From Silvanigrellaceae bacterium (GTDB lineage: Bacteria > Bdellovibrionota_B > Oligoflexia > Silvanigrellales > Silvanigrellaceae), in the NCBI GenBank assembly GCA_049423385.1, contig JBMSQQ010000046.1, positions 1 through 27,020 of the forward strand: DNA of 27,020 nucleotides, given 5' to 3'. Below the pieces are notes generated by a model. The model saw only the letters and a program-made list of their open reading frames with translations. It was not told the DNA's origin and ran no database searches. Below, piece after piece: positions 8,759 through 18,872 of the stretch (the stretch's first letter is position 1; each line of letters starts with the position of its first letter). Position numbers and translations under genes: made by a program.

Positions 8759-9169
8759 ATGCAGCGAGCCCACAAGAGTCCGTTTTTAAGGGGGCTGGGA
8801 CACCTGGCCCTGGTCGTGGACGACCTCGAGAAAGCCAAATGGTTTTATGGAGAGGTCCTGGGTGCCGACGTTGAGGTTTGGCGTGGGACCCAGCTGTTGA
8901 TCCACGTGGGCCCCGACCTCATTGTTGCCAAGCTTTCGAGCGATGCCATCGATCAGGAACGCCAGTCTGGTCCATTCGGACGACAAGTCCTCGATCATTT
9001 CGGGTTCATGGCTGACAGCCCCTCGCAGGTGGATGCCTTGGCAAAGCGATTGAGCGAATCCGGCCTGCAGATTGTCAAAGGGCCATATGACCGCTCGGAT
9101 GGTCGCAGTGTCTATTTCCGGGATCCCTTCGGAAACCTTGTCGAGTATTTGTATTACAAGCCGCGCTGA
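8759..9169 (+). CDS. VOC (glyoxalase/bleomycin resistance) family protein
   Basis: GLGHLALVVDDLEKAKWFYGEVLG, LDHFGF, GRSVYFRDPFGNLVE. Confidence 0.92.
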   Translation: MQRAHKSPFLRGLGHLALVVDDLEKAKWFYGEVLGADVEVWRGTQLLIHVGPDLIVAKLSSDAIDQERQSGPFGRQVLDHFGFMADSPSQVDALAKRLSESGLQIVKGPYDRSDGRSVYFRDPFGNLVEYLYYKPR

Positions 9170-9230
9170 GTCGTGTTCAGCCCGGGACTGAAATTGAATT
9201 TTAAATTGTTTTGATGGTGAATTGGTTCAA

Positions 9231-10481
9231 ATGACGAACGAGCAAATTTTAATACTGGTCCTTGTGGCATTGATTGTTGGTGCTGGCGCTTTCCTGCTCG
9301 GCAAACGGAGCGGCAACAGGTCACTGCCAACCGCGAAAGAGCAACGAATTCCTGGTCAAGCCGGGGTATCACAAGCACAAGAACGAGAAAATCTTGATGA
9401 GCAACGAGAACGCCAGGTTGCTGCTCCTCTGGAGGTGCAGGCCGCGACTCGGCCAGGCGTCGAGGAAGCTGTGGCTGCGACGAGTTGGTTGAGCCGCTTG
9501 TCCACCGGCCTGAGCAAAACCCAACAGCACCTGGTCAGACAACTGGATTCGTTGTTCACAAGCACCGCAGATAAAGCATCCCGTGAGGCCATACTCGATG
9601 GAATGCTCGAGATCCTCGTGCGTGCAGATGTCGGCATTCGCACAGCAGAGTCTCTGATCGAAAAAGTTCGACACGAGCTTCCCGGTGATGATCTTTCCGA
9701 TGCGCAAGCCGTGAAAGGTGTTCTGCGCAAGGAAATTCTGAGAATGTTGAGCGTCGATAAACAATGGAGTCTTGTCCCGGAAGGAAACACGGGAACACCA
9801 ACCGTGGTCTTGATGGTCGGCGTCAATGGTGTTGGCAAAACGACAACAACAGGCAAGCTGGCTTTCAAGGAACGTCAGGCCGGCAAAAGCGTGATTGTTG
9901 GTGCGGCCGACACTTTTCGTGCAGCGGCAGTGGATCAATTGGAAGAGTGGGCCAAACGCGCGGGCGCCGAGTGTGTGCGTCTGACGGAAGGAGCCGACCC
10001 TGCCTCGGTTGCATTTGAATGTGTGAAGCGGGCTGTAACTCAACAAACCCAGCTCTGCCTCATCGACACTGCAGGACGTCTGCACAACCGCCAGGACTTG
10101 ATGCAGGAGTTGGGTAAAATTCGTCGGGTGGCAAGCAAAGACGTGCCAGGAGCACCCCATGAAGTGCTGTTGGTTCTTGATGCCACAACGGGACAAAATG
10201 CGCTTCAGCAGGCCAAATCATTCCGCGAAGTCGCTGGCGTCACTGGGCTCGTGTTGACCAAGCTCGACGGCACCGCCAAAGGTGGCGTGGCGATCGCCTT
10301 GGCCAGCGAATTGGGCTTGCCAATCCGCTACATTGGTGTTGGAGAAAGCGTCGACGATTTGCAGCTCTTCAAGGCCGACGAGTTTGTTGACGCACTCTTC
10401 ACTCCGGGCCATTCCGCGACGCAGGAGCAGACGATGCTGAGAGGTTTGCCGGGCAAAGAACAGCCCAAAGGATTCAGTTGA
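9231..10481 (+). CDS. ftsY: Signal recognition particle receptor FtsY with N-terminal TM anchor
   Basis: GVNGVGKTTT (G1), DTFRAAA, DTAGRLH (G3), TKLDGTAKGG (G4), IGVGE..DDL. ATG 9231 is preferred over TTG 9222. Confidence 0.97.
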   Translation: MTNEQILILVLVALIVGAGAFLLGKRSGNRSLPTAKEQRIPGQAGVSQAQERENLDEQRERQVAAPLEVQAATRPGVEEAVAATSWLSRLSTGLSKTQQHLVRQLDSLFTSTADKASREAILDGMLEILVRADVGIRTAESLIEKVRHELPGDDLSDAQAVKGVLRKEILRMLSVDKQWSLVPEGNTGTPTVVLMVGVNGVGKTTTTGKLAFKERQAGKSVIVGAADTFRAAAVDQLEEWAKRAGAECVRLTEGADPASVAFECVKRAVTQQTQLCLIDTAGRLHNRQDLMQELGKIRRVASKDVPGAPHEVLLVLDATTGQNALQQAKSFREVAGVTGLVLTKLDGTAKGGVAIALASELGLPIRYIGVGESVDDLQLFKADEFVDALFTPGHSATQEQTMLRGLPGKEQPKGFS

Positions 10482-11139
10482 CTTTGTCGTTTTCAATGGT
10501 CAAGGTTTGGCCTTCTTTGAGAACGACAGGAATGTGTTTGTAATCCATTCCGGTGGGAGTTGCCTGGCCACACAGTCCCACTTTCTGAACGCTCACGGGA
10601 AAGTCGATTTCGATTGGCAATGAGCCTGTTTCATTTGTGATGAACTTGGGATTTCCGCCAACACAAGCAGCCTCATCTTTCTCAATTCCAATGACCCGGG
10701 CAAGTTTGGCCACGGATGTGCTTTTCACAAGCACACGTGCAAATCCAGGAGCAATGGGTGCCACGGCCACATCGTTCTTGATGACGAGCTTTTGGTCCTT
10801 CTTCAGTTTCACTGGAACAAGCTTGTAGTCCATGCCCGTGGGAGTGGCTTGTCCACACAAGCCAATCTGAGTGACCGTCAGTGGGACTTCCATCACGATT
10901 TTTTCCGAGGGTTTTACAAACACAACGTGCTTGGGATTGCCACCCAAGCAATGTGCTTCATCTTTTTCAATGCCGATGACTCGCACAAGCTGTCGAACCG
11001 AGGTGCTTTCAACCACGACTGTTGCCTGATCGCCTTTTTCGGTGACTTCCTTGCTGCTGAGTGTGTTGTAGTTTCGATTGATGCAGCCAAATGCAACGAG
11101 CATTGGAATCGTCAGGGCAAGAGGAGTGATGATTTTCAT
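10474..11139 (-). CDS. Orphan lipoprotein (221 aa) with two tandem 85-aa domains
   Basis: True start is ATG 11139 (MKIITPLALTIPMLVAFG-C, lipobox-like). The longer ORF to 11484 runs antisense into the ftsY remnant. Internal duplication. Confidence 0.8.
   Translation of the reverse strand: MKIITPLALTIPMLVAFGCINRNYNTLSSKEVTEKGDQATVVVESTSVRQLVRVIGIEKDEAHCLGGNPKHVVFVKPSEKIVMEVPLTVTQIGLCGQATPTGMDYKLVPVKLKKDQKLVIKNDVAVAPIAPGFARVLVKSTSVAKLARVIGIEKDEAACVGGNPKFITNETGSLPIEIDFPVSVQKVGLCGQATPTGMDYKHIPVVLKEGQTLTIENDKVN
10486..11025 (-). repeat. Intragenic tandem duplication (units 11025-10771 and 10740-10486)
   Basis: Gapless manual alignment gives 51/85 identical aa, including RVIGIEKDEAxCxGGNPK and an invariant GLCGQATPTGMDYK. 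Confidence 0.95.
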
Positions 11140-11279
11140 GAGTGATGTGTCCCGCTGTTGTATTGTTGAGCTGAAGAATCTTCCATCAAGAATATCATTT
11201 TGAAACAACAATAACCCCTTGATTGAGGCATTTTTGGCGTTTTGATTGTCTCGAGGTGTTTTTACGCAAACGAGCTTGC

Positions 11280-11864
11280 CTCGATGGAATGCTCGAGATT
11301 CTCGTGCGGGCAGACGTCGGGATTCGCACAGCAGAGTCGCTAATCGAAAAAGTTCGACACGAACTTCCCGGTGAAGATCTTTCTGATGCGCAAGCCGTGA
11401 AAGGCGTTCTGCGCAAGGAAATTCTGAGAATGTTGAGCGTCGACAAACAATGGAGCCTTGTCCCGCAGTCAAACACGGGAACACCGACCGTGGTTTTGAT
11501 GGCGGGCGTCAATTGTGTTGGCACGGCCGTGGATCAATTGGAAGAGTGGGCCAAACGCGCGGGCGCCGAGTGTGAGCGTCTGATGGAAGGAGCCGACCCG
11601 GCCTCGGTTGATTTTGACTGTGTGAAGCGGGCTGTTTTTTAACAAACCCAGCTCTGCCTCATCGACACCGCCAAAGGTGGCGTGGCGATCGCCTTGGCCA
11701 GCGAATTGGGCTTGCCGATTCGTTACATTGGCGTGGGCGAAAGCGTCGATGATTTGCAGCTCTTCAAGGCCGATGAGTTTGTTGATGCGTTGTTCTCGTC
11801 TGAACGTTCGGCGATGATAAACAACCCTCAGCAGTCTGCAGGATTCAAGGAAGTGCAGTCTTGA
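11280..11864 (+). pseudogene. ftsY: Truncated, internally deleted second copy of the ftsY 3' region
   Basis: 11280-11523 aligns to 9594-9837, 11524-11668 to 9925-10069, and 11669-11795 to 10274-10400. No 5' part; deletions of 87 and 204 nt; CAA>TAA stop at 11640-11642; different C-terminal tail ending at TGA 11864. Confidence 0.93.
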
Positions 11865-12044
11865 GCATATGGTGAATGGCAGAACCTGAACGAGCGTAAT
11901 CGAAGCTTGACTCAGCTGTGTTCAAGAATTGAGTTTGGCTGCGACTTAAGCAGGTTTTTCGCGCATCAAATGCAACTTCTCAAGTTTATCCAATGAATGC
12001 CGTCCACTTATAGAATAAATGTCGACGACCCCGCGGAGGTGTCT

Positions 12045-13337
12045 GTGCGGCCAATATCGCGTCAAAAGCGACTTTTTTGGTTAAAAATCGTTTTGGCTCG
12101 TAGAACCCTGCTGTTCATCCATATTTTATTGGGCTGTTCATCCGCAATGAGCTTTTTGTCGGGCCGTTTGGGCAATCCAGGTGCGGGCGCAGAGAACGTT
12201 GCCAACAAAACAACCGGTGGTGAAATAGCCAATCAGCCCACCCCAGCCGGAACGGTCGCATCGAGCAACGATGAAAAAGAATTGCCCACGATTGAAGTTG
12301 CTGGTGTGAATCTCACCTCTGAATGTGTGGATCTCCAATTGTCCGGGAAAAATTCCGACAGCAAAGTGCTGCGTTGCGAGATTAAAACCGATTCAGATTC
12401 AGAATCATCGATGAAAGTTGGCAGGTTCACACTCAAAAATCTCAGGAGCAACAATATTGTTTCTGCCTCGGGAGTGGCCGGAGTCAAAGCTGCGCCTCCA
12501 GAAACCTGGCGCGTTTCAAGGAAATTGAGCATCGATGTGGAATTTGATGTTCCGGTGTTGGAAATTCAAGAGATGCGCAGTTTGCCCGCGAGTTTGATCC
12601 TGGAAAACGTGGTCTTGAACGGAGCACCTGTTGTTGAACCGGTCGTTTTCAAACCACTGGCCAGGGATTTCAGCATCCCGGATCCCCTTTGCGGGAGTGG
12701 AGTAGCTTCCATTGACTTCCAATCAACATTCAGGAGACAGACTGGCGAAACTCTGGATGGTACGGATTTCACGAGTGAGGTAAACATACCCGCTGCCAAG
12801 ACAGCGCTCGGCAATGCGACAATCTGTTCGGTCGAATTTCTCAACAACATTGTTTTGGATTTCGACGGAATCACGGTTTCAGAGTACCGTTTTGAAATGA
12901 CACTCGGAGGAGTCGACAATCTTCTCTTGACCAACATAGAAAACGTTGAAACCATTTTTGGCTTTCCTGCAATTTTCAATATGGGAAAGATTAAAAATCT
13001 GCCCACAAGAACGTCGCCCAATACAGAGTTGAAATATGGGGCTGACCTGACTCAATTGAGGAGTCAGATTGGGGGAGTGAAGCAATGGTGTGCTTTTGGC
13101 GTTCAGGATTGCTTTCTGACCGACCCTGGCAACCCAAGCCGGCTGACAATCAACTTGATGAATTTGCCGTCTTCGTATCTCGTCAAATTTGCCCGTTCAT
13201 TTCTGGGACTCGATGTTGCTGGAAGCCCTCTGACGCTTCAATTGCAGAAGGTTCCCCAGAACATTTCAGGCCGCGTAGCCGTCCTCAGCGCAGATCAGGT
13301 TTTGGATATCCGAGTCACTTATGTTCCCGCCCTCTGA
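12045..13337 (+). CDS. Hypothetical exported protein, possible lipoprotein
   Basis: ORF open from 11997, but GGAGG (12035-12039) precedes GTG 12045. Basic then hydrophobic N-terminus ending LLG-C, low-complexity linker, beta-rich body with several Cys. No family recognised. Confidence 0.65.
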   Translation: MRPISRQKRLFWLKIVLARRTLLFIHILLGCSSAMSFLSGRLGNPGAGAENVANKTTGGEIANQPTPAGTVASSNDEKELPTIEVAGVNLTSECVDLQLSGKNSDSKVLRCEIKTDSDSESSMKVGRFTLKNLRSNNIVSASGVAGVKAAPPETWRVSRKLSIDVEFDVPVLEIQEMRSLPASLILENVVLNGAPVVEPVVFKPLARDFSIPDPLCGSGVASIDFQSTFRRQTGETLDGTDFTSEVNIPAAKTALGNATICSVEFLNNIVLDFDGITVSEYRFEMTLGGVDNLLLTNIENVETIFGFPAIFNMGKIKNLPTRTSPNTELKYGADLTQLRSQIGGVKQWCAFGVQDCFLTDPGNPSRLTINLMNLPSSYLVKFARSFLGLDVAGSPLTLQLQKVPQNISGRVAVLSADQVLDIRVTYVPAL

Positions 13338-13516
13338 TGCCGCATGTAGTTGAATGTTTTTTTCAACATTTTGAATGGTTAATGGGGGATGGGCGGTGCC
13401 TGACCATTCCGTATCCAGAATGAGTTATTTTTTCGCGATGTTTTGCCGAACATGCAGAAAAAGAGGGAAGAGCCTCAGTCTCGTGGTCGGGGAGCGTTGT
13501 AGAGGATAACCAAGCC

Positions 13517-14848
13517 GTGAAGACCGAATGGGACAATCGGATTCTGGTGGTTTGCGACATCGGCGAAACGGCTGATGCGTTGCTGCGTGGCGTTGATTCG
13601 CTTCTTGGTTCCGCTGAAGGGCTTGCGCCGGAACTTCTCAAAGAGGCACCGCTCAAGGTCGTCGCCTCAGCTGACGTTGCGAAACTCAAATATCGCTTCC
13701 AGAATGGAAAATGTCCTGTTGGTATTTTGCTGGTTTCAGAAAACAAGGATTCAACCGTTGAACAAACCAAGGGCCTAACAAACGATTCCTCAAACTCGCG
13801 CAGTCTGGAAGGACTGATATGCGAACTTGACGGGACGTTCTCCAAATCCATATTCCAGCGCACGTTGGTGATGACCAACCGTCTGGATCATTCGTCACTG
13901 CGCTTTCTGGGTGAGTTTGGAATCAAAACCGCGCAGTTGGTGAATGACCTTCGTTCACCCGCAGAACCTGAATGCCGCAAGCTTTTTGGCAAATTGTTGT
14001 CTGTCATCGGCAGTTGTTCATTTGCCGAATATCAGAACCTCTGGCTTGATGATGAAAAACTCGCATTCAAATTGGAAAATTGGCAGACCCTTGCAGAAAA
14101 CGAAAAATCGGTCTTGGAAAAATCATTGCGCGGAACGTTGGGCAGCGAGCTGTTTGGGAAATTCAAGGACCTGCGCGAATCACTTCGGGACGACTCGAAA
14201 AACACCTTTCTCAAGGCAGTGCTCGAACTTCTGGGCGGTCGTCCTGATCATTTCAATGCCCAATGTCTATTGGCCGCTGTGCGCATCCGGCAAGGGGATT
14301 GTGGCGATGCAGTGCAGACACTTTTGCGTTTGAACACTCTGAGCCCCAGGAACCCGCTGCGACACACACAGCTGGGTCGTTGCTACATTCAGTTGAACCG
14401 TATGGAACTTGCAGAGCATGCTTTTGTCGACGCACTTTCTTTGGATCGTCATCAGAAAGAAGCGCGTATGGAATTGTGCCGCATGAAGCTTGCCAGCCGC
14501 GATTTGCAGGCCGTAGACCAGTTGATTCGCAAGACTGATGACCCGATTTTGCTTGCGAAATTCTACAACTCAATGGGAATTGTCAGTGTCCGTGAAGGCA
14601 GGATGGGCGAAGCCGTAGGTTATTATCTTATGGCCCATGATGCAGTTCTGAATTCAGAAGAACAATTCAAGATTCTTGTGAACATGGGTATTGCCTACGC
14701 AAAGTGGGGTAAATTTGCGGAGGCAAATTATTACGCCGGAATTGCGGCCGCGTTGAACCCTTCCTCGCAGACACTGGCGCGTTTGAAATCAATACTTGAG
14801 CTGCGCGAGGAGAATATTTTCCGACAGGATTCCACATATGAAATATGA
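13517..14848 (+). CDS. Tetratricopeptide repeat protein with a possible degenerate receiver-like N-terminus
   Basis: TPR-like segments (SPRNPLRHTQLGRCYIQL, FYNSMGIVSVREGRMGEAVGYY, ILVNMGIAYAKWGKFAEA); GTG start with AGAGGA upstream. Confidence 0.8.
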   Translation: MKTEWDNRILVVCDIGETADALLRGVDSLLGSAEGLAPELLKEAPLKVVASADVAKLKYRFQNGKCPVGILLVSENKDSTVEQTKGLTNDSSNSRSLEGLICELDGTFSKSIFQRTLVMTNRLDHSSLRFLGEFGIKTAQLVNDLRSPAEPECRKLFGKLLSVIGSCSFAEYQNLWLDDEKLAFKLENWQTLAENEKSVLEKSLRGTLGSELFGKFKDLRESLRDDSKNTFLKAVLELLGGRPDHFNAQCLLAAVRIRQGDCGDAVQTLLRLNTLSPRNPLRHTQLGRCYIQLNRMELAEHAFVDALSLDRHQKEARMELCRMKLASRDLQAVDQLIRKTDDPILLAKFYNSMGIVSVREGRMGEAVGYYLMAHDAVLNSEEQFKILVNMGIAYAKWGKFAEANYYAGIAAALNPSSQTLARLKSILELREENIFRQDSTYEI

Positions 14849-16340
14849 CAAGACGAACAGCGAACCTGCGCGCCATCGCGCGGAACGAGGGCCGGGAACC
14901 CTGGCTGGAATTGACGTGTGGCTGGTGGAAGCAGAGCAATCAACGCTTGAATTGTATCGCCGGTTGTTGGTTCAAGCGGGTGCAAGTGTCACATGTTTTG
15001 AAAGTGCATCTGCATTTTTGCGCCCGTTTGCTGAAGCTCCTGTGGGTGTGGATGAAATGGCAAAAAGGCCCGACGTTGTGCTGGTGGATCTCGTTCTTCC
15101 GGATGACTCCGGGGTGGCGGTGATTGAATTCTGCCGACAACACTGGCCCATGGTTCCCACATTGGCTTTCAGCACGTTTGCAAGTGTGGAGGACGCTGTG
15201 TCGGCCATGCAGGCGGGCGCATGCAATTATATACGCAAGCCCGTGCACCTTGAAGATCTTGTTGTCGAGACAGGAAAAGCGCTCAGGCACGCCGAGTTTT
15301 TGGGGCGGCATCAAAGCCTTCAAGACTCCTTCAGGATCCTCAATATTGCCCGTTCTTTGGCTGTTGTTCCCGACCGAAAAGAGTTGCTCAAGGCTTTCAT
15401 CCGCTCGCTTTCCAAAGAAATCAAACTGAGCGAGGGTTTTGCTTTTCTTTATGACGCCAATCTCACTTTCCCGGAGTTTTTGCTCGACTTGCGGCAGGGA
15501 GGCGTGTCACGCAGAGAGCCCTTTGAATTCGTGCAAAAGTTTATAGTCCCTGTGCTTGCCGACAAGAAAAACACTTCTCATGCATTGGTCACGGGGAATC
15601 TTGCGGAGGTGATTCATCCTGCGATTTCCGTCACGCCTGATCAACGCTTCATCATTGTCGAGTTTGGCACCCATTCCGGAAACCGCGGAATTGTCGTTTT
15701 CTCGCCCTCTGATCTCAATTCAAGCGCAGTGCTGGCCCGGCTCGGTGAACTCGACCCGATGCTTGACCAGACAGGCCGTTCCTTCCAAAACCTGGACACC
15801 GTCGCGTCAATGCTGTTGGTCGACGAGTTGACGGGTCTTTATAACCAAAGGTTCATGAAAGTCGCACTGAATCAGGAGGTGGCCCGTTGCCAACGTTACG
15901 GCGGGCACGTTTCGTTGATGTTCATCGACCTCGACAAGTTCAAGTCGATCAATGACACGCATGGTCACATTGTGGGATCGGAGATGATCAAGAGGGCAGC
16001 CCGTATCTTGCGTGATTCCGTTCGTGATTCCGACTCCCTCCTTCGTTATGGTGGAGACGAGTTTTGTGCGATTTTGCCGAACACCAACCTGGAAGGAGCA
16101 TTCACCCTTGCGGAGCGCATCCGCAGCTCATTCGAAAAGTCGGTGCTCGATTTGAGTTCCGTTTCCGGAGTTGCTTCGGCGCGACAATTGAACGTCACGG
16201 CAAGCATCGGCGTGGCCAGTTTTCCCCAATGTGCAGAATCGGCAATTGAGCTCGTCAACGCTGCCGACGCTGCAATGTATGATTCCAAGCGTTCGGGCAG
16301 GAATCGAGTCAGTGTATTCAACAGGAAGAATGCAGCTTGA
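14838..16340 (+). CDS. Response-regulator diguanylate cyclase (REC - linker/GAF-like - GGDEF)
   Basis: REC: DVVLVDLVLPDDSG, AMQAGACNYIRKP. GGDEF: DELTGLYNQR, DLDKFKSINDTHGHIVG, RYGGDEF with RDSD I-site, VTASIGVA. ATG 14838 overlaps the TPR gene stop. Confidence 0.95.
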   Translation: MKYDKTNSEPARHRAERGPGTLAGIDVWLVEAEQSTLELYRRLLVQAGASVTCFESASAFLRPFAEAPVGVDEMAKRPDVVLVDLVLPDDSGVAVIEFCRQHWPMVPTLAFSTFASVEDAVSAMQAGACNYIRKPVHLEDLVVETGKALRHAEFLGRHQSLQDSFRILNIARSLAVVPDRKELLKAFIRSLSKEIKLSEGFAFLYDANLTFPEFLLDLRQGGVSRREPFEFVQKFIVPVLADKKNTSHALVTGNLAEVIHPAISVTPDQRFIIVEFGTHSGNRGIVVFSPSDLNSSAVLARLGELDPMLDQTGRSFQNLDTVASMLLVDELTGLYNQRFMKVALNQEVARCQRYGGHVSLMFIDLDKFKSINDTHGHIVGSEMIKRAARILRDSVRDSDSLLRYGGDEFCAILPNTNLEGAFTLAERIRSSFEKSVLDLSSVSGVASARQLNVTASIGVASFPQCAESAIELVNAADAAMYDSKRSGRNRVSVFNRKNAA

Positions 16341-16487
16341 TTAAAAAAGGTGCATGTAAAAGCTTTTTTTCAGCCGGCTTCCCCTCAACACTTTTCTTCA
16401 ATCAATTAAATCTTTCCTGTGAAGAGGAATTCAATTAGAGCTTTCATTGTGCAGCAGATGTACCTGTGAATGAAAGGTCGTGTCGCA

Positions 16488-17500
16488 TGAACTCAAGTTG
16501 GGCAACGCTTCCGCTCCCGAACGGCTCGCTCTCCACCATGATTGCTGCACGACTCTCGGCGAAACACGTGCTGCCGATGATGTCGACTCCATTCAAGGTT
16601 TCTCTGGGGGATGGGAGCATTCTCACCGGAGAAATAGATTGCCTTAGCAATTCCAATCCCAAGGCCAACATTATTTTGGTGCATGGGCTTGGCAGTTCCT
16701 GCCATGACCCATCCATTGTCAGGCAAGCTCGTTTTCTGGCCCAAAGAAACTTCAAGGTCTTTCGCCTGAATCACCGCAACATCGGTTCGGGCAAGGGGAA
16801 GGCATTGGGTTTTTACCATGGATTTCGGGGGCCAGACATCAAGGAAGCTCTGGCGGATCTGCATAAAAGAGAACCCGGTGCCCGGTGGATTCTGGTCGGT
16901 CACTCCATGTCGGGCAACATGGTTTTGAAGATTGCCGGGGTGAAGGAGCATGCCGATGAATTGAAAAGCATGGGGTGTGTGGGTGTTTCGGCGATCAGTC
17001 CGGTGGTGGATTTGCGCAGGTCAAGCCGCTCGATGCACAAGCCGATGTTTGGCCTGTTCAACACGCTGTTTCTGAAAAAAATCAACGCTTATATCCGTCG
17101 CCTCGACAATGTTGACGAGTCCTTGAAGACTGCGGCAAGGGGAGCGAAAAAACTGTTCGAGTTCGATGAACTGTTCTTGGCCCCAGCCTTGGGTTTGCCC
17201 GGCGCGCAAGCATATTACGACTTGGCATCAAGCAAAGACGTTCTCGATGAAATCCAAATCCAAACCGAGATCTTTTTGGCGAAAGACGACCCGATTGCTC
17301 CCGGCACCTACAAAATTCTTCAACAAACAAAAAACCCGAATCTGCGCATTCATGCGTCTCGATTCGGGGGGCATCTGGGCTTTCTTCGCTTCGACTTCAA
17401 AGCGCGGAAATTCAACTTCTTCATTGATGAGTTGCTGGGAAAGACTTGTGACCAGATGATCGCCAATGTCCCGGTTCCGGGCGAAATTCCCCCGCAGTGA
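16488..17500 (+). CDS. YheT-like alpha/beta hydrolase
   Basis: LVHGLGSS, FRLNHR, GHSMSG nucleophile elbow, LFEFDE...AP..G...A.AYY..AS, AKDDP, GGHLGF. ORF open from GTG 16466; ATG 16488 follows GAAAGG. Confidence 0.9.
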
Positions 17501-17563: not shown

Positions 17564-18712
17564 TCACAGTTCCAAGACAGCCGAGAGAATTTCCCGGTCC
17601 TCTTTCACCGGCAAAGAAACACTTTCAAGCCAATCACTGCGGCTCTGGTTCCAGCCAAATTCGTTGACCATGAACTCGAAGGCACGCAGTTGGGTCAGCA
17701 CCCGACGCACTGCCATGTTTGTTCCACGCAAACCTTCGCGCGCGCTCAAATCGCAGTAATCCGAAATGTGCAGCGGTGCTTCCTGAGTGCAGTCGAAAGG
17801 CATCATCAAACAAATTTCCGCATCGGCATCCGAGTCCAACACTCCGTTGTTCCATTCCCGGAATCCGTTGTGCACGCGAATTTTCAGGCGTTGGTTGGAA
17901 ACCTGTTCGCGGTGTTGAACGATTGTGCATGCCAAAAGAACATCTGCTTCGAGTTGCGGAGACAGGCGCCAGCATTTGAGTGGTTTCTTTTCGAGCGCAA
18001 GAGTCTCGGGTGCAACGGGGCGCCACTGTGCGCTCGTCCGTTGCGTGTAAAGCAGACGGTACCAAAGCAAATCGACGGTGGAGACGTAGGGAAGGGTGCG
18101 CCACCAATTGTTTTCCTGGGCCTGAAGAGTGTCGCCTGCAATGGATGCGGGTCTGAGGGCTTCGCCTTCGGAATCGAGGATTTCGCACATGGCCGCAGCG
18201 GGTGGCAGTCCGGCAAGCTGACAGAGTTCCATAACCGCTTCCGTGTGTCCTGTTCGGGCAAGAAGTCCACCATCTTGTGCACGCACCGGGAACACATGCC
18301 CCGGGCTCAAAAAGTCGTGGTGCGTGGTTGTGGCTTCGCCCATCAGGCGAATGGTGTGCGATCTGTCACTGGCAGAGATGCCACTCGTGATGTTGTTTCG
18401 GGCGTCAATGGAGAGCGTGAAGCCAGTGTGTGACATGCCACCCGGCCACTTGGGTGCCGAAGCAATTCCGAGTCTGTCGGCGAGCTCGTGCGAAACGGAG
18501 ACGCACAAAAGCCCACAGGCTTTGCGGATAGCCAGATTCACAAGTTCCGGTGTCGCAAATGAGGCGTGAAAAACAAGGTCTGCCTCGTTTTCACGGCGTC
18601 CATCGTCACCCACGAGAATAGCCTGCCCTTGCGAAAATGCCTGAACAGCCCGGCTGACCCGGTTTCTCATGGCTCCCAGTTCGCGGGAATGGCTGTTGGC
18701 TGTGGCCCTCAT
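17564..18712 (-). CDS. ribB: 3,4-dihydroxy-2-butanone-4-phosphate synthase with C-terminal extension (RibBX-like)
   Basis: DD.RRENEADL, GLLCV, FTLSIDA, TSGISASDR, PGHVFP, GGLLARTGHTEA and CEI motifs; about 160 extra C-terminal aa. Confidence 0.9.
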   Translation of the reverse strand: MRATANSHSRELGAMRNRVSRAVQAFSQGQAILVGDDGRRENEADLVFHASFATPELVNLAIRKACGLLCVSVSHELADRLGIASAPKWPGGMSHTGFTLSIDARNNITSGISASDRSHTIRLMGEATTTHHDFLSPGHVFPVRAQDGGLLARTGHTEAVMELCQLAGLPPAAAMCEILDSEGEALRPASIAGDTLQAQENNWWRTLPYVSTVDLLWYRLLYTQRTSAQWRPVAPETLALEKKPLKCWRLSPQLEADVLLACTIVQHREQVSNQRLKIRVHNGFREWNNGVLDSDADAEICLMMPFDCTQEAPLHISDYCDLSAREGLRGTNMAVRRVLTQLRAFEFMVNEFGWNQSRSDWLESVSLPVKEDREILSAVLEL

Positions 18713-18872
18713 TTATCCCTCACTTGAATCTTTAAGACCCTGAAAAGTCGCAACTTTCACATTTTTTCGGAACTTTTGGGTCAAGCCCCGCCGGCGAACC
18801 TCCGAAGCAACCACGTCCAAGTTTTGACGCTGTTTTCAGAGGTCGTAATCCAACTCTCGGGCAGGGAATATT

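What the first reader, a model, noticed from the sequence alone, without database searches (positions are those of the whole stretch)
9594..13337. ftsY 3' end as a recombinational cargo-capture site: ftsY - orphan gene - displaced ftsY allele - orphan gene
Seen: a second ftsY 3' segment starts abruptly at 11280, 1.69 kb after its match. Manual codon comparison: block 1 (81 codons) has 13 synonymous vs 5 non-synonymous changed codons, and block 3 (43 codons) has 11 synonymous vs 0. The tails differ (TPGHSAT...QPKGFS vs SSERSAM...QSAGFKEVQS), and each copy is followed by a different orphan exported-protein gene. Known: a fresh duplicate decaying neutrally would not show this synonymous bias. Inference: both were once functional alleles in different lineages. 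Incoming DNA carrying an ftsY 3' part plus lipoprotein cargo recombined into the resident gene, kept it intact and pushed the old 3' end and its neighbour downstream. No integrase is visible, so this may be an integrase-free cassette-stacking hotspot anchored on an essential gene.
Basis: partly seen in the sequence, partly recalled or inferred. Interest (0 to 1): 0.75.

Follow-up and report, generated by a model that had tools for sequence, protein, structure and literature searches.

The report
Stranded old ftsY end beside cargo
Behind the essential ftsY gene of an uncultured freshwater bacterium lies a dead second copy of the gene's end, a scar of recombination with a related lineage that added a lipoprotein gene; the scar is real and clean, but of a known kind.

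Summary
A 5'-truncated ftsY copy (R, 11280-11864) lies 1.69 kb behind its match in the intact gene (W, 9222-10481). It is 90-92% identical in three in-register blocks. It has in-frame deletions of 87 and 204 nt that remove the GTPase motifs, plus one TAA.

R is not a fresh duplicate. W/R dN/dS is 0.13, and 0.02-0.03 in the two outer blocks. R's last 203 nt are 98.5% identical to the ftsY end of another species (G012, about 80% identical elsewhere), while W's end differs.

Contigs from runs of two studies bridge every junction at even depth.

The ftsY-ribB gap is variable across the family (37 nt to 7 kb), and no recombinase is present.

Best reading: 3'-end displacement. Recombination anchored in ftsY homology, with crossovers at the conserved GTPase-motif stretches, inserted a 1.7-kb piece carrying an allelic ftsY end and a lipoprotein gene.

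Three limits apply:
- Polarity is unresolved: displaced resident end versus passenger fragment.
- The "orphans" have homologues.
- None of 12 relatives' loci holds a remnant, so stacking is not shown.

This matches Rhs and T6SS displacement models. This scan has already noted the same kind of scar at lysS, ligA, atpG, fusA, mnmG, ilvE and mltG in other genomes.

The parts
9222..10481 (+). Intact ftsY (W), 419 aa, mosaic. Up to about 9929 it shows species-level divergence from G012. 9930-10321 is 97.7% identical to G012. From 10322 it carries a third allele type plus a novel 26-aa tail.
   Evidence: Pfam SRP54 3.5e-72 and SRP54_N 4.9e-09; identity table; difference map.
10474..11139 (-). Cargo gene lipo221: a 221-aa predicted lipoprotein with two internal repeats, convergent with ftsY, overlapping its stop by 8 nt. 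Function unknown.
   Evidence: ORF; internal 80-nt repeat at 285-nt spacing; no Pfam family above cut-off; homologues of 61-71% at other loci in relatives; no named Atlas cluster.
11140..11279 (.). Spacer upstream of lipo221. Its right end (11279/11280) is the non-homologous joint to the ftsY remnant.
   Evidence: Homology to ftsY begins at 11280. A 1144-nt contig covering 10292-11435 crosses the joint with 0 differences in runs X1 and X2.
11280..11864 (+). ftsY remnant (R). It starts at codon ~125 and has three blocks in one frame: 11280-11523, 11524-11665 and 11666-11797. A canonical 22-aa tail follows, with the stop at 11862-11864. It lacks 87 nt (P-loop) and 204 nt (G3-G4 motifs) and has a TAA at 11640-11642.
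   Evidence: 11663-11865 is 98.5% identical to the G012 ftsY end.
11997..13337 (+). P446, a predicted lipoprotein of a lineage-specific paralogue family. G012 lacks it through a 1233-nt in-frame deletion.
   Evidence: (no Pfam).
13517..16340 (+). TPR protein (13517-14848) and response-regulator diguanylate cyclase (14796-16340). 13243-15703 is 95.6% identical to G012, against a background of about 80%.
   Evidence: Pfam; DNA comparison; a TPR443 orthologue only in G012 among 12 genus genomes.
16466..17500 (+). Alpha/beta hydrolase, the last gene of the 7.1-kb variable stretch. It shows baseline identity (82%) to G012.
   Evidence: Pfam.
17564..18712 (-). ribB-like gene (DHBP synthase), the conserved right border. 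In most relatives it lies directly behind ftsY, convergent with it.
   Evidence: Pfam 1.5e-55; synteny.

Best explanation
R is the stranded 3' part of a once-functional ftsY allele that evolved separately from the end now attached to the working gene. The two were brought together by the host's own recombination between DNA of related lineages. The anchor was ftsY homology, not an integrase, a transposon or an in-situ duplication.

My favoured course (inferred):
1. The earlier locus read ftsY (tail SSERSAM...QS) - P446 - TPR - GGDEF - hydrolase - ribB.
2. A 1686-bp unit from a lineage about 6-10% diverged then arrived. It carried an ftsY fragment from codon ~125, a different tail, the convergent lipoprotein gene and 140 nt of its upstream DNA.
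3. The unit recombined into ftsY. One route is a single crossover with a circular form, as in the Rhs C-terminal-displacement model. The other is one homologous plus one illegitimate joint (HFIR).
4. The gene stayed intact with a new end, and the old end was shunted 1.7 kb downstream.
5. The stranded copy then lost its GTPase motifs through two microhomology deletions, and gained a stop and a cluster of missense changes.

Crossovers in this gene fall at the stretches that encode the conserved P-loop and TKLDGTAKGG motifs. These supply the only long exact matches (46-51 nt) between diverged alleles.
For: Shown:
- Anatomy: an intact gene, 0.8 kb of non-homologous cargo, then a co-oriented 5'-truncated copy.
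- W/R dN/dS is 0.13. It is 0.027 in block 1 and 0.02 in block 5. This rejects omega 0.5, the value expected for a duplicate of which one copy decays neutrally, with P = 7.6e-5 for the core and 2e-7 for the outer blocks.
- R's last block and tail are 98.4% and 100% identical to G012 ftsY, and the tail has the length and pattern of all 12 relatives' tails. W's last block is 89% identical and its tail is new.
- Trees: (W,R) in blocks 1-3 with support 81/49; (R,G012) in block 5 with support 84/70.
- W 9930-10321, R from 11663, and 11934-12009 plus 13243-15703 are all 95-100% identical to G012, against a background of 79-82%. Removing the 1686-bp unit would therefore restore one continuous tract.
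- TPR-GGDEF-hydrolase-ribB are shared with G012, whereas lipo221 sits next to ftsY only here. lipo221 is therefore the newcomer.
- No recombinase, no tRNA, no inverted terminal repeats.
- Junctions and even depth in contigs from two studies.
- This is the only such repeat in the 3.47-Mb genome.
- dprA (6.6e-60) and a weak ComEC match (32.8 bits) are present.

Precedent: the circle-plus-single-crossover model in Jackson 2009 (passages) and HFIR displacement in Kirchberger 2017 (passages).
Against: - No donor genome carrying ftsY with the new tail next to lipo221 was found, and no same-species genome with the empty arrangement.
- Every model needs extra mosaicism. R's middle block is as G012-like at synonymous sites (dS 0.047) as W's (0.059), so the crossover cannot be placed from it.
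- R-specific changes are unevenly spread: 6 in block 1 (all at third codon positions), 13 in blocks 3-4 (mostly missense) and 0 in 207 nt of block 5 plus tail. Chi-square P = 0.002. Uniform decay of one displaced piece does not predict this.
- G012 is a fragmentary genome (75% complete, 4% contamination, 450 contigs). Its near-identical tracts could come from a second population in its sample.
- Tree supports are moderate because the blocks are short.
- ComEC and DprA are common in bacteria (10 of 14 control genomes), so they say little about competence.
Confidence: 0.5

Rival explanations
1. Reverse polarity: R is a passenger. The resident locus already read ftsY(new tail)-lipo221. An incoming linear piece from a G012-like lineage then arrived, running from ftsY codon ~125 through tail, P446, TPR and the first half of GGDEF. 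It recombined homologously on the right, inside the GGDEF gene, and joined illegitimately on the left at 11279/11280. W's G012-like middle (9930-10321) would then be a later gene conversion from R.
For: The G012-like tract runs without interruption from R's middle block to 15703 and ends inside the GGDEF gene, where identity falls from 96% to 82%. R's middle and last blocks are both G012-like at synonymous sites. Gene conversion between nearby repeats is ordinary (established knowledge).
Against: The incoming piece would have had 0.6-0.9 kb of 90% homology to ftsY on its left and yet joined illegitimately 140 nt from lipo221. A separate clean insertion of lipo221 and a conversion event are both needed. 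The tail attached to the working gene is the atypical one: 26 aa, against 17-22 aa in 12 relatives.
Confidence: 0.27
2. In-situ tandem duplication of the ftsY 3' part with its downstream DNA, followed by divergence and loss of the second cargo copy.
For: The repeats are direct and co-oriented, 1.7 kb apart.
Against: The synonymous bias rejects neutral decay of one copy. The two ends have different nearest relatives. The sequences after the two copies are unrelated.
Confidence: 0.05
3. Footprint of a site-specific element that targets the ftsY 3' end and has lost its recombinase. Candidates are an integrase-driven island carrying a replacement gene end, or a Tn7-like element inserted behind a conserved gene.
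For: The cargo junctions sit at or just after the ftsY stop, both here and in G012, where identity to R ends at 11865, one base after the stop. The gap is variable across the family.
Against: No integrase or transposase was found in 20 window ORFs scanned or in 6 G012 cargo ORFs. There is no tRNA and there are no terminal inverted repeats. The repeat is 0.6-0.9 kb of 90-92% identity with at most 51 exact bases, unlike a short identical att core. The cargoes of relatives share no end sequences.
Confidence: 0.06
4. Assembly artefact: a strain-chimeric contig that joins two populations' ftsY regions.
For: The window is a contig of a 183-contig metagenome-assembled genome. Short-read contigs break at the shared stretches, and one low-depth contig in run X3 takes another path through the 51-nt shared stretch.
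Against: The joint 11279/11280 and both deletion joints are crossed by contigs with 0 differences in runs of two studies. Depth is even (about 10-13) over W's middle, the unit, R's middle and the flanks in X1, and doubles (27) only on the shared 51 nt. R is truncated and deleted, so it cannot be another strain's working gene. The longest exact W/R match is 51 nt, shorter than ordinary reads.
Confidence: 0.03

Closest known systems
C-terminal displacement at rhs loci (Jackson et al. 2009, PMC2935791; passages read)
   Same: An intact gene is followed by a co-oriented fragment that keeps part of the conserved region plus the old, different end. The authors explain this by homologous recombination of the chromosomal gene with a circular piece carrying a conserved fragment plus a new end, which shunts the old end downstream. 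No dedicated recombinase is involved.
   Different: Rhs ends are toxin domains with immunity genes and are under diversifying selection. Here the gene is the essential SRP receptor, its end has no known variable function, and the passenger is a lipoprotein gene. There is one displaced end only, not a string of them.
Sequential displacement of T6SS effector-immunity modules in Vibrio cholerae by homology-facilitated illegitimate recombination (Kirchberger et al. 2017, PMC5361080; passages read)
   Same: A conserved upstream stretch serves as an anchor and the non-homologous end joins illegitimately. The old 3' end and its neighbour are pushed downstream. No integrase is found, and the finished arrays later move between strains by ordinary homologous recombination.
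   Different: In Vibrio, retention is explained by selection for the old immunity gene. Here nothing suggests that the stranded piece is useful.
Homology-facilitated illegitimate recombination in transformable bacteria (de Vries & Wackernagel 2002; Prudhomme et al. 2002; Meier & Wackernagel 2003). I saw these only as entries in the reference list of PMC5361080. PMC122324 is not held, so the details are recalled.
   Same: One-sided homology lets foreign DNA enter. The second joint uses microhomology.
   Different: The experimental events mostly delete recipient DNA next to the anchor (recalled). Here recipient or donor homology is duplicated, which fits a circular intermediate or two sister chromosomes better.
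Integrase-driven islands that insert into the 3' end of a gene and bring a replacement end (tRNA, tmRNA and some protein genes; recalled, not searched beyond)
   Same: The target gene stays intact, and a partial second copy of its end marks the far side of the insert.
   Different: Such islands carry an integrase and short, near-identical att repeats. Neither is present here.

Membership tests
3'-end (C-terminal) displacement scar made by host recombination | Intact gene followed by a co-oriented, 5'-truncated copy of its 3' part, with non-homologous DNA between them | tested here: met
   W 9222-10481, cargo 10482-11279, R 11280-11864.
3'-end (C-terminal) displacement scar made by host recombination | The two ends are separately evolved alleles, not a fresh duplicate | tested here: met
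   dN/dS 0.13; binomial tests; different nearest relatives per block; R's tail identical to another species' tail.
3'-end (C-terminal) displacement scar made by host recombination | No recombinase or transposase of its own | tested here: met
   Pfam on 20 window ORFs and 6 G012 cargo ORFs found none. Intergenic gaps in the island are under 200 nt.
3'-end (C-terminal) displacement scar made by host recombination | The stranded copy is the former resident end (polarity) | tested here: inconclusive
   The canonical tail and continuity of the G012-like tract favour it. A passenger model fits the same identities.
3'-end (C-terminal) displacement scar made by host recombination | Repeated events at the same gene (strings of displaced ends) | tested here: not met
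   One remnant here. None in the loci of 12 relatives at E <= 1e-3, and only distant paralogues genome-wide at E <= 1e-30.
Integrase-driven island at a gene's 3' end | Integrase gene, and short identical att repeats at both ends | tested here: not met
   No integrase. The repeat is 0.6 kb at 90-92% identity with at most 51 exact bases.
Tn7-like insertion behind a conserved gene | Transposase genes and terminal inverted repeats | tested here: not met
Tandem segmental duplication | Both copies followed by the same sequence; divergence neutral in the spare copy | tested here: not met
   The downstream sequences are unrelated; synonymous bias.
FtsY (SRP receptor GTPase), applied to the remnant as a possible working gene | Complete NG domain with P-loop and G3-G4 motifs in an open frame with a start | tested here: not met
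   The alignment shows loss of GKTTT...AADTFRAA and of GRLHN...TKLDG, a G-to-C change in the P-loop and a TAA.

The most novel reading that the evidence does not exclude
The ftsY end may be a standing exchange point. The exact-match stretches that encode its GTPase motifs would let related Silvanigrellaceae lineages pass lipoprotein-gene cargo to each other without any mobile-element machinery. The retained remnant would keep the unit mobile: recombination between W and R would pop out a 1.4-1.7-kb circle (ftsY fragment plus lipoprotein gene) that can re-enter another genome by a single crossover. One contig in run X3 has the junction such a circle would have. This fits the recurring 3'-end scars at other housekeeping genes that this scan has noted, and it would make core-gene-anchored cassette exchange a general route of gene gain.
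Probability: 0.12. Interest if true: 0.6.

Novelty: new member of a known kind. Interest (0 to 1): 0.3.

Why it matters
It is a well-resolved natural example of gene gain without mobile-element machinery, at an essential housekeeping gene. The allele that matches the stranded end is still found intact in another species. The breakpoints map to the stretches that encode conserved GTPase motifs. That illustrates how the most conserved parts of core genes can serve as landing pads for recombination between diverged lineages. Taken alone it adds one case to a known mechanism. Together with the similar scars noted elsewhere in this scan, it argues that the mechanism is not confined to toxin loci.

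Tried and rejected
- Closer relatives: the metagenome scan with FtsY gave 41 loci but only two of the genus (77% and 69% identity). It gave no same-species genome, no donor and no empty site.
- The genome-contig scan added only taxonomic labels: relatives are titled Oligoflexia or Silvanigrellaceae.
- L121, which seemed to match the new tail, is an unrelated ftsY-ftsE locus.
- The native flanks of lipo221 homologues share nothing with 10403-10476 or 11140-11279, so the origin of the unit's ends stayed open.
- Promoter/terminator scan of 10300-12100: 0 promoter-like and 5 terminator-like sites, against 2.7 expected; uninformative.
- Rfam and tRNA scans of the window found nothing.
- Atlas look-ups gave no function for lipo221 or P446.
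- No earlier notes exist for this genome.
- I could not place the crossover or fix the polarity from site patterns, because all three alleles are near-identical in 9930-10321.
- The X3 contig that links R's middle to W's end passes through a 51-nt shared stretch, longer than the 31-mers used to build it. It is no evidence for a circle or a variant.
- Loose ends at 10255-10290 in X2 and X5 are other organisms' ftsY genes sharing the conserved motif.
- A paper search for ftsY as an integration site found nothing relevant among 5 papers.


Full report
WHAT IS THERE

The window is a whole 27-kb contig (C46) of a metagenome-assembled genome of 3.47 Mb in 183 contigs, 90.6% complete. Record titles of its relatives read Oligoflexia and Silvanigrellaceae.

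ftsY (W, 9222-10481, 419 aa) has SRP54 and SRP54_N domains. A convergent 221-aa predicted lipoprotein gene (lipo221, 10474-11139, minus strand) overlaps its stop by 8 nt.

After a 140-nt spacer, homology to ftsY resumes abruptly at 11280. The copy (R) aligns in three blocks:
- 9594-9837 with 11280-11523, 91.4% identical;
- 9925-10066 with 11524-11665, 92.3%;
- 10271-10402 with 11666-11797, 90.2%.

All three blocks lie in one reading frame. A 22-codon tail follows, with the stop at 11862-11864.

R lacks 87 nt (P-loop to AADTFRAA) and 204 nt (from DTAG to TKLDG). Both deletions are flanked by short direct repeats in the full gene (read). R also carries a G-to-C change in the P-loop and a TAA at 11640-11642, so it is dead.

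Genome-wide tblastn finds no other ftsY piece, only two distant paralogues. A self-comparison of the whole genome finds no other dispersed direct repeat above 90% identity within 20 kb.

IS THE ASSEMBLY REAL?

I laid contigs of four public runs from two studies on 8800-13400.
- A 1144-nt contig covering 10292-11435, with 0 differences, occurs in X1 and in X2. It crosses the W end, lipo221, the spacer and 155 nt of R.
- X1 contigs 11414-11558 and 11545-11695 cross both deletion joints.
- A 12.5-kb contig covers 11687-13400.
- Depth in X1 is even (about 10-13) over W's middle, the unit, R's middle and both flanks. It doubles (27) only on the 51 nt that W and R share.

The contigs break where W and R share words. 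The longest exact match is 51 nt, which ordinary reads span.

One low-depth X3 contig runs from R's second deletion joint into W's end through that 51-nt stretch. Because it was built from 31-mers, it proves nothing either way.

No long reads were available. A strain-chimeric artefact is very unlikely.

NOT A FRESH DUPLICATE

Nei-Gojobori counts over 171 shared codons give 29.5 synonymous and 14.5 non-synonymous differences, so dS is 0.29, dN is 0.038 and omega is 0.13.

A duplicate of which one copy decays neutrally should give omega near 0.5 or above. That is rejected, with P = 7.6e-5 for the whole core. For the outer blocks, where 2 of 23 differences are non-synonymous, P = 2e-7.

The middle is different. 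Blocks 3-4 have omega 0.4-0.6. R-specific changes number 6 in block 1 (all at third codon positions), 13 in blocks 3-4 and 0 in the 207 nt of block 5 plus tail. This spread gives chi-square P = 0.002 (my Fisher test there used rounded site numbers). Decay is therefore concentrated around the two deletions, and I cannot explain why.

TWO ORIGINS

The closest species representative, G012, is 79-82% identical to this genome over the flanks.

| Region | W vs G012 | R vs G012 | W vs R |
|---|---|---|---|
| ftsY 5' part | 62% | - | - |
| Block 1 | 81% | 79% | 93.6% |
| Block 4 | 97.9% | 93.8% | 91.7% |
| Part deleted in R (del2) | 97.1% | - | - |
| Block 5 | 89.1% | 98.4% | 90.7% |
| Tail (78 nt) | not comparable (39%) | 100% | not comparable (39%) |

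Other genus members are 57-84% identical throughout.

By blastn, 11663-11865 is 98.5% identical to the G012 gene end, and the match stops one base after the stop codon.

R's tail has the length and pattern of all 12 relatives' tails. W's 26-residue tail is the odd one, though its first 11 residues resemble other tails.

Trees agree with moderate support: (W,R) in blocks 1-3 at 81/49, (R,G012) in block 5 at 84/70, and block 4 unresolved.

W/G012 differences are dense up to 9818. There are 9 in 9930-10321 (2.3%), and they are dense again from 10322. The switches therefore sit at the stretches that encode the P-loop and TKLDGTAKGG. These are also where W and R share their longest exact runs, 46 and 51 nt.

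Downstream of R, 11934-12009 (95%) and 13243-15703 (95.6%) are also near-identical to G012. From 15966 on, identity is back at 81-82%. G012 lacks P446 through a 1233-nt in-frame deletion.

THE NEIGHBOURHOOD

Upstream, DUF1573-HEAT-glyoxalase-ftsY is conserved. All four genes are seen in 7 of 12 genus loci, and every gene that the shorter loci reach is present in the others.

Downstream, the ancestral state is ftsY convergent with a ribB-like gene, then an SLT transglycosylase.

| State of the ftsY-ribB gap | Genomes |
|---|---|
| ribB directly follows ftsY | 5 of 12 genus representatives, plus one metagenome contig |
| A ~560-aa gene lies between | 5 of 12 |
| A 420-aa lipase-like gene follows (contig then ends) | 1 of 12 (G008) |
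| At least 6.2 kb of other genes follow, to the contig end | 1 of 12 (G012) |
| 7.1 kb lies between | this genome |

In other genera of the family the gap runs from 37 nt to about 3 kb. Those loci carry only 1.5-kb flanks unless fetched wider.

None of the 12 relatives' loci holds a second ftsY piece at E <= 1e-3.

No integrase or transposase appears in 20 window ORFs scanned or in 6 G012 cargo ORFs. There is no tRNA or Rfam family, and no terminal inverted repeats.

The neighbour genes are not orphans:
- lipo221 has homologues in 9 of 12 genus genomes (best 61-71% identical) and in 0 of 20 genomes of other genera. They always lie on contigs other than the ftsY contig, and their flanks map to different places of this genome.
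- P446 has three paralogues in this genome and homologues in 5 of 12 genus genomes.
- The TPR gene has an orthologue only in G012.

HOW IT MOST LIKELY AROSE

TPR-GGDEF-hydrolase-ribB is shared with G012, and lipo221 sits next to ftsY only here. lipo221 is therefore the newcomer.

Removing the 1686-bp period (W's end, lipo221, spacer and R's front) would leave one ftsY. Its 3' 550 nt, its tail and its downstream DNA would then form a single G012-like tract. That is what a single crossover between the resident gene and a circular piece would produce. This is the model proposed for rhs C-terminal displacement (Jackson 2009, passages). A linear piece with one homologous and one illegitimate joint (HFIR, as invoked by Kirchberger 2017, passages) gives the same picture.

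I rate this family of events at 0.5.

The main rival (0.27) reverses the polarity. In it, R rode in on the front of an incoming G012-like tract that was anchored on the right inside the GGDEF gene. It joined illegitimately behind lipo221, and later gene conversion made W's middle G012-like.

The identities cannot separate the two, because W, R and G012 are all alike in 9930-10321.

The remaining rivals are rated low, for the reasons given under rival explanations:
- in-situ duplication, 0.05;
- a decayed site-specific element, 0.06;
- an assembly chimera, 0.03.

A caveat on G012: it is fragmentary (75% complete, 4% contamination). Even if its near-identical tracts came from a second population, they still show the intact form of the allele whose end R holds.

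KNOWN OR NEW

The anatomy and the inferred mechanism match C-terminal displacement at rhs loci and sequential displacement at T6SS loci. The difference is the gene, an essential housekeeping GTPase, and the absence of any visible benefit of the stranded end.

This scan's earlier AI notes, which are unchecked, report the same kind of scar at lysS, ligA, atpG, fusA, mnmG, ilvE and mltG in other genomes. The kind is thus neither new in print nor new to the scan.

A paper search for ftsY as an integration site gave nothing relevant among 5 papers. I did not search further, so I make no claim that ftsY cases are unpublished.

VERDICT

This is a real and unusually well-documented recombination scar, a new member of a known kind. 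Interest 0.3.

Noticed in passing
window 10477-11139, 11997-13334; L036 (G012 cargo ORFs); L042 and L047 cargo ORFs: Most cargo genes in the ftsY-ribB gap begin with a signal peptide ending in a lipobox-like ...[AG]C motif. This holds for lipo221, P446, the ~560-aa gene of five relatives, the lipase-like 420-aa gene and four G012 ORFs. I read this from the translations, and the lipobox pattern is recalled, not tested. The variable genes behind the SRP-receptor gene thus seem to be mostly lipoproteins.
   Followed up: no
window 12010-13242 versus L073 (G012:C294): G012 lacks P446 through a 1233-nt deletion (411 codons, in frame). It leaves the first 4 and last 32 codons joined.
   Followed up: partly
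window 9946-10606 (run X3, record 19): A 457-nt, depth-4.9 contig joins R's middle block and second deletion joint to W's end and lipo221. An excised circle or a W/R recombinant would have this junction. The join passes through 51 nt identical in both copies, so it may be a graph path error.
   Followed up: partly
window 9959-10070 and 11744-12100: The population in study P2 (runs X2, X5) differs from the window at 6 sites within 112 nt of W's middle. It differs at 6 more sites in 11744-12100. It is identical over 8800-9749 and 10292-11435. Such patchy differences suggest further small recombination tracts in ftsY.
   Followed up: no
window 12720, 12727, 12732, 12738: All three runs that cover these places (X1, X2, X3) read four other letters within 19 nt of P446. 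The window's consensus differs there from every run laid.
   Followed up: no
window 10645-10724 and 10930-11009: lipo221 is an internal duplication: two ~95-residue repeats, seen as an 80-nt repeat at 285-nt spacing with 71% identity.
   Followed up: no
window 18713-18872: No FMN riboswitch, nor any other Rfam family, is found upstream of the ribB-like gene at gathering thresholds.
   Followed up: no
G000 contig C135, 808-990 and 5968-6150: A 183-nt inverted repeat pair, 85.8% identical and 5 kb apart, might bracket a mobile or invertible segment.
   Followed up: no
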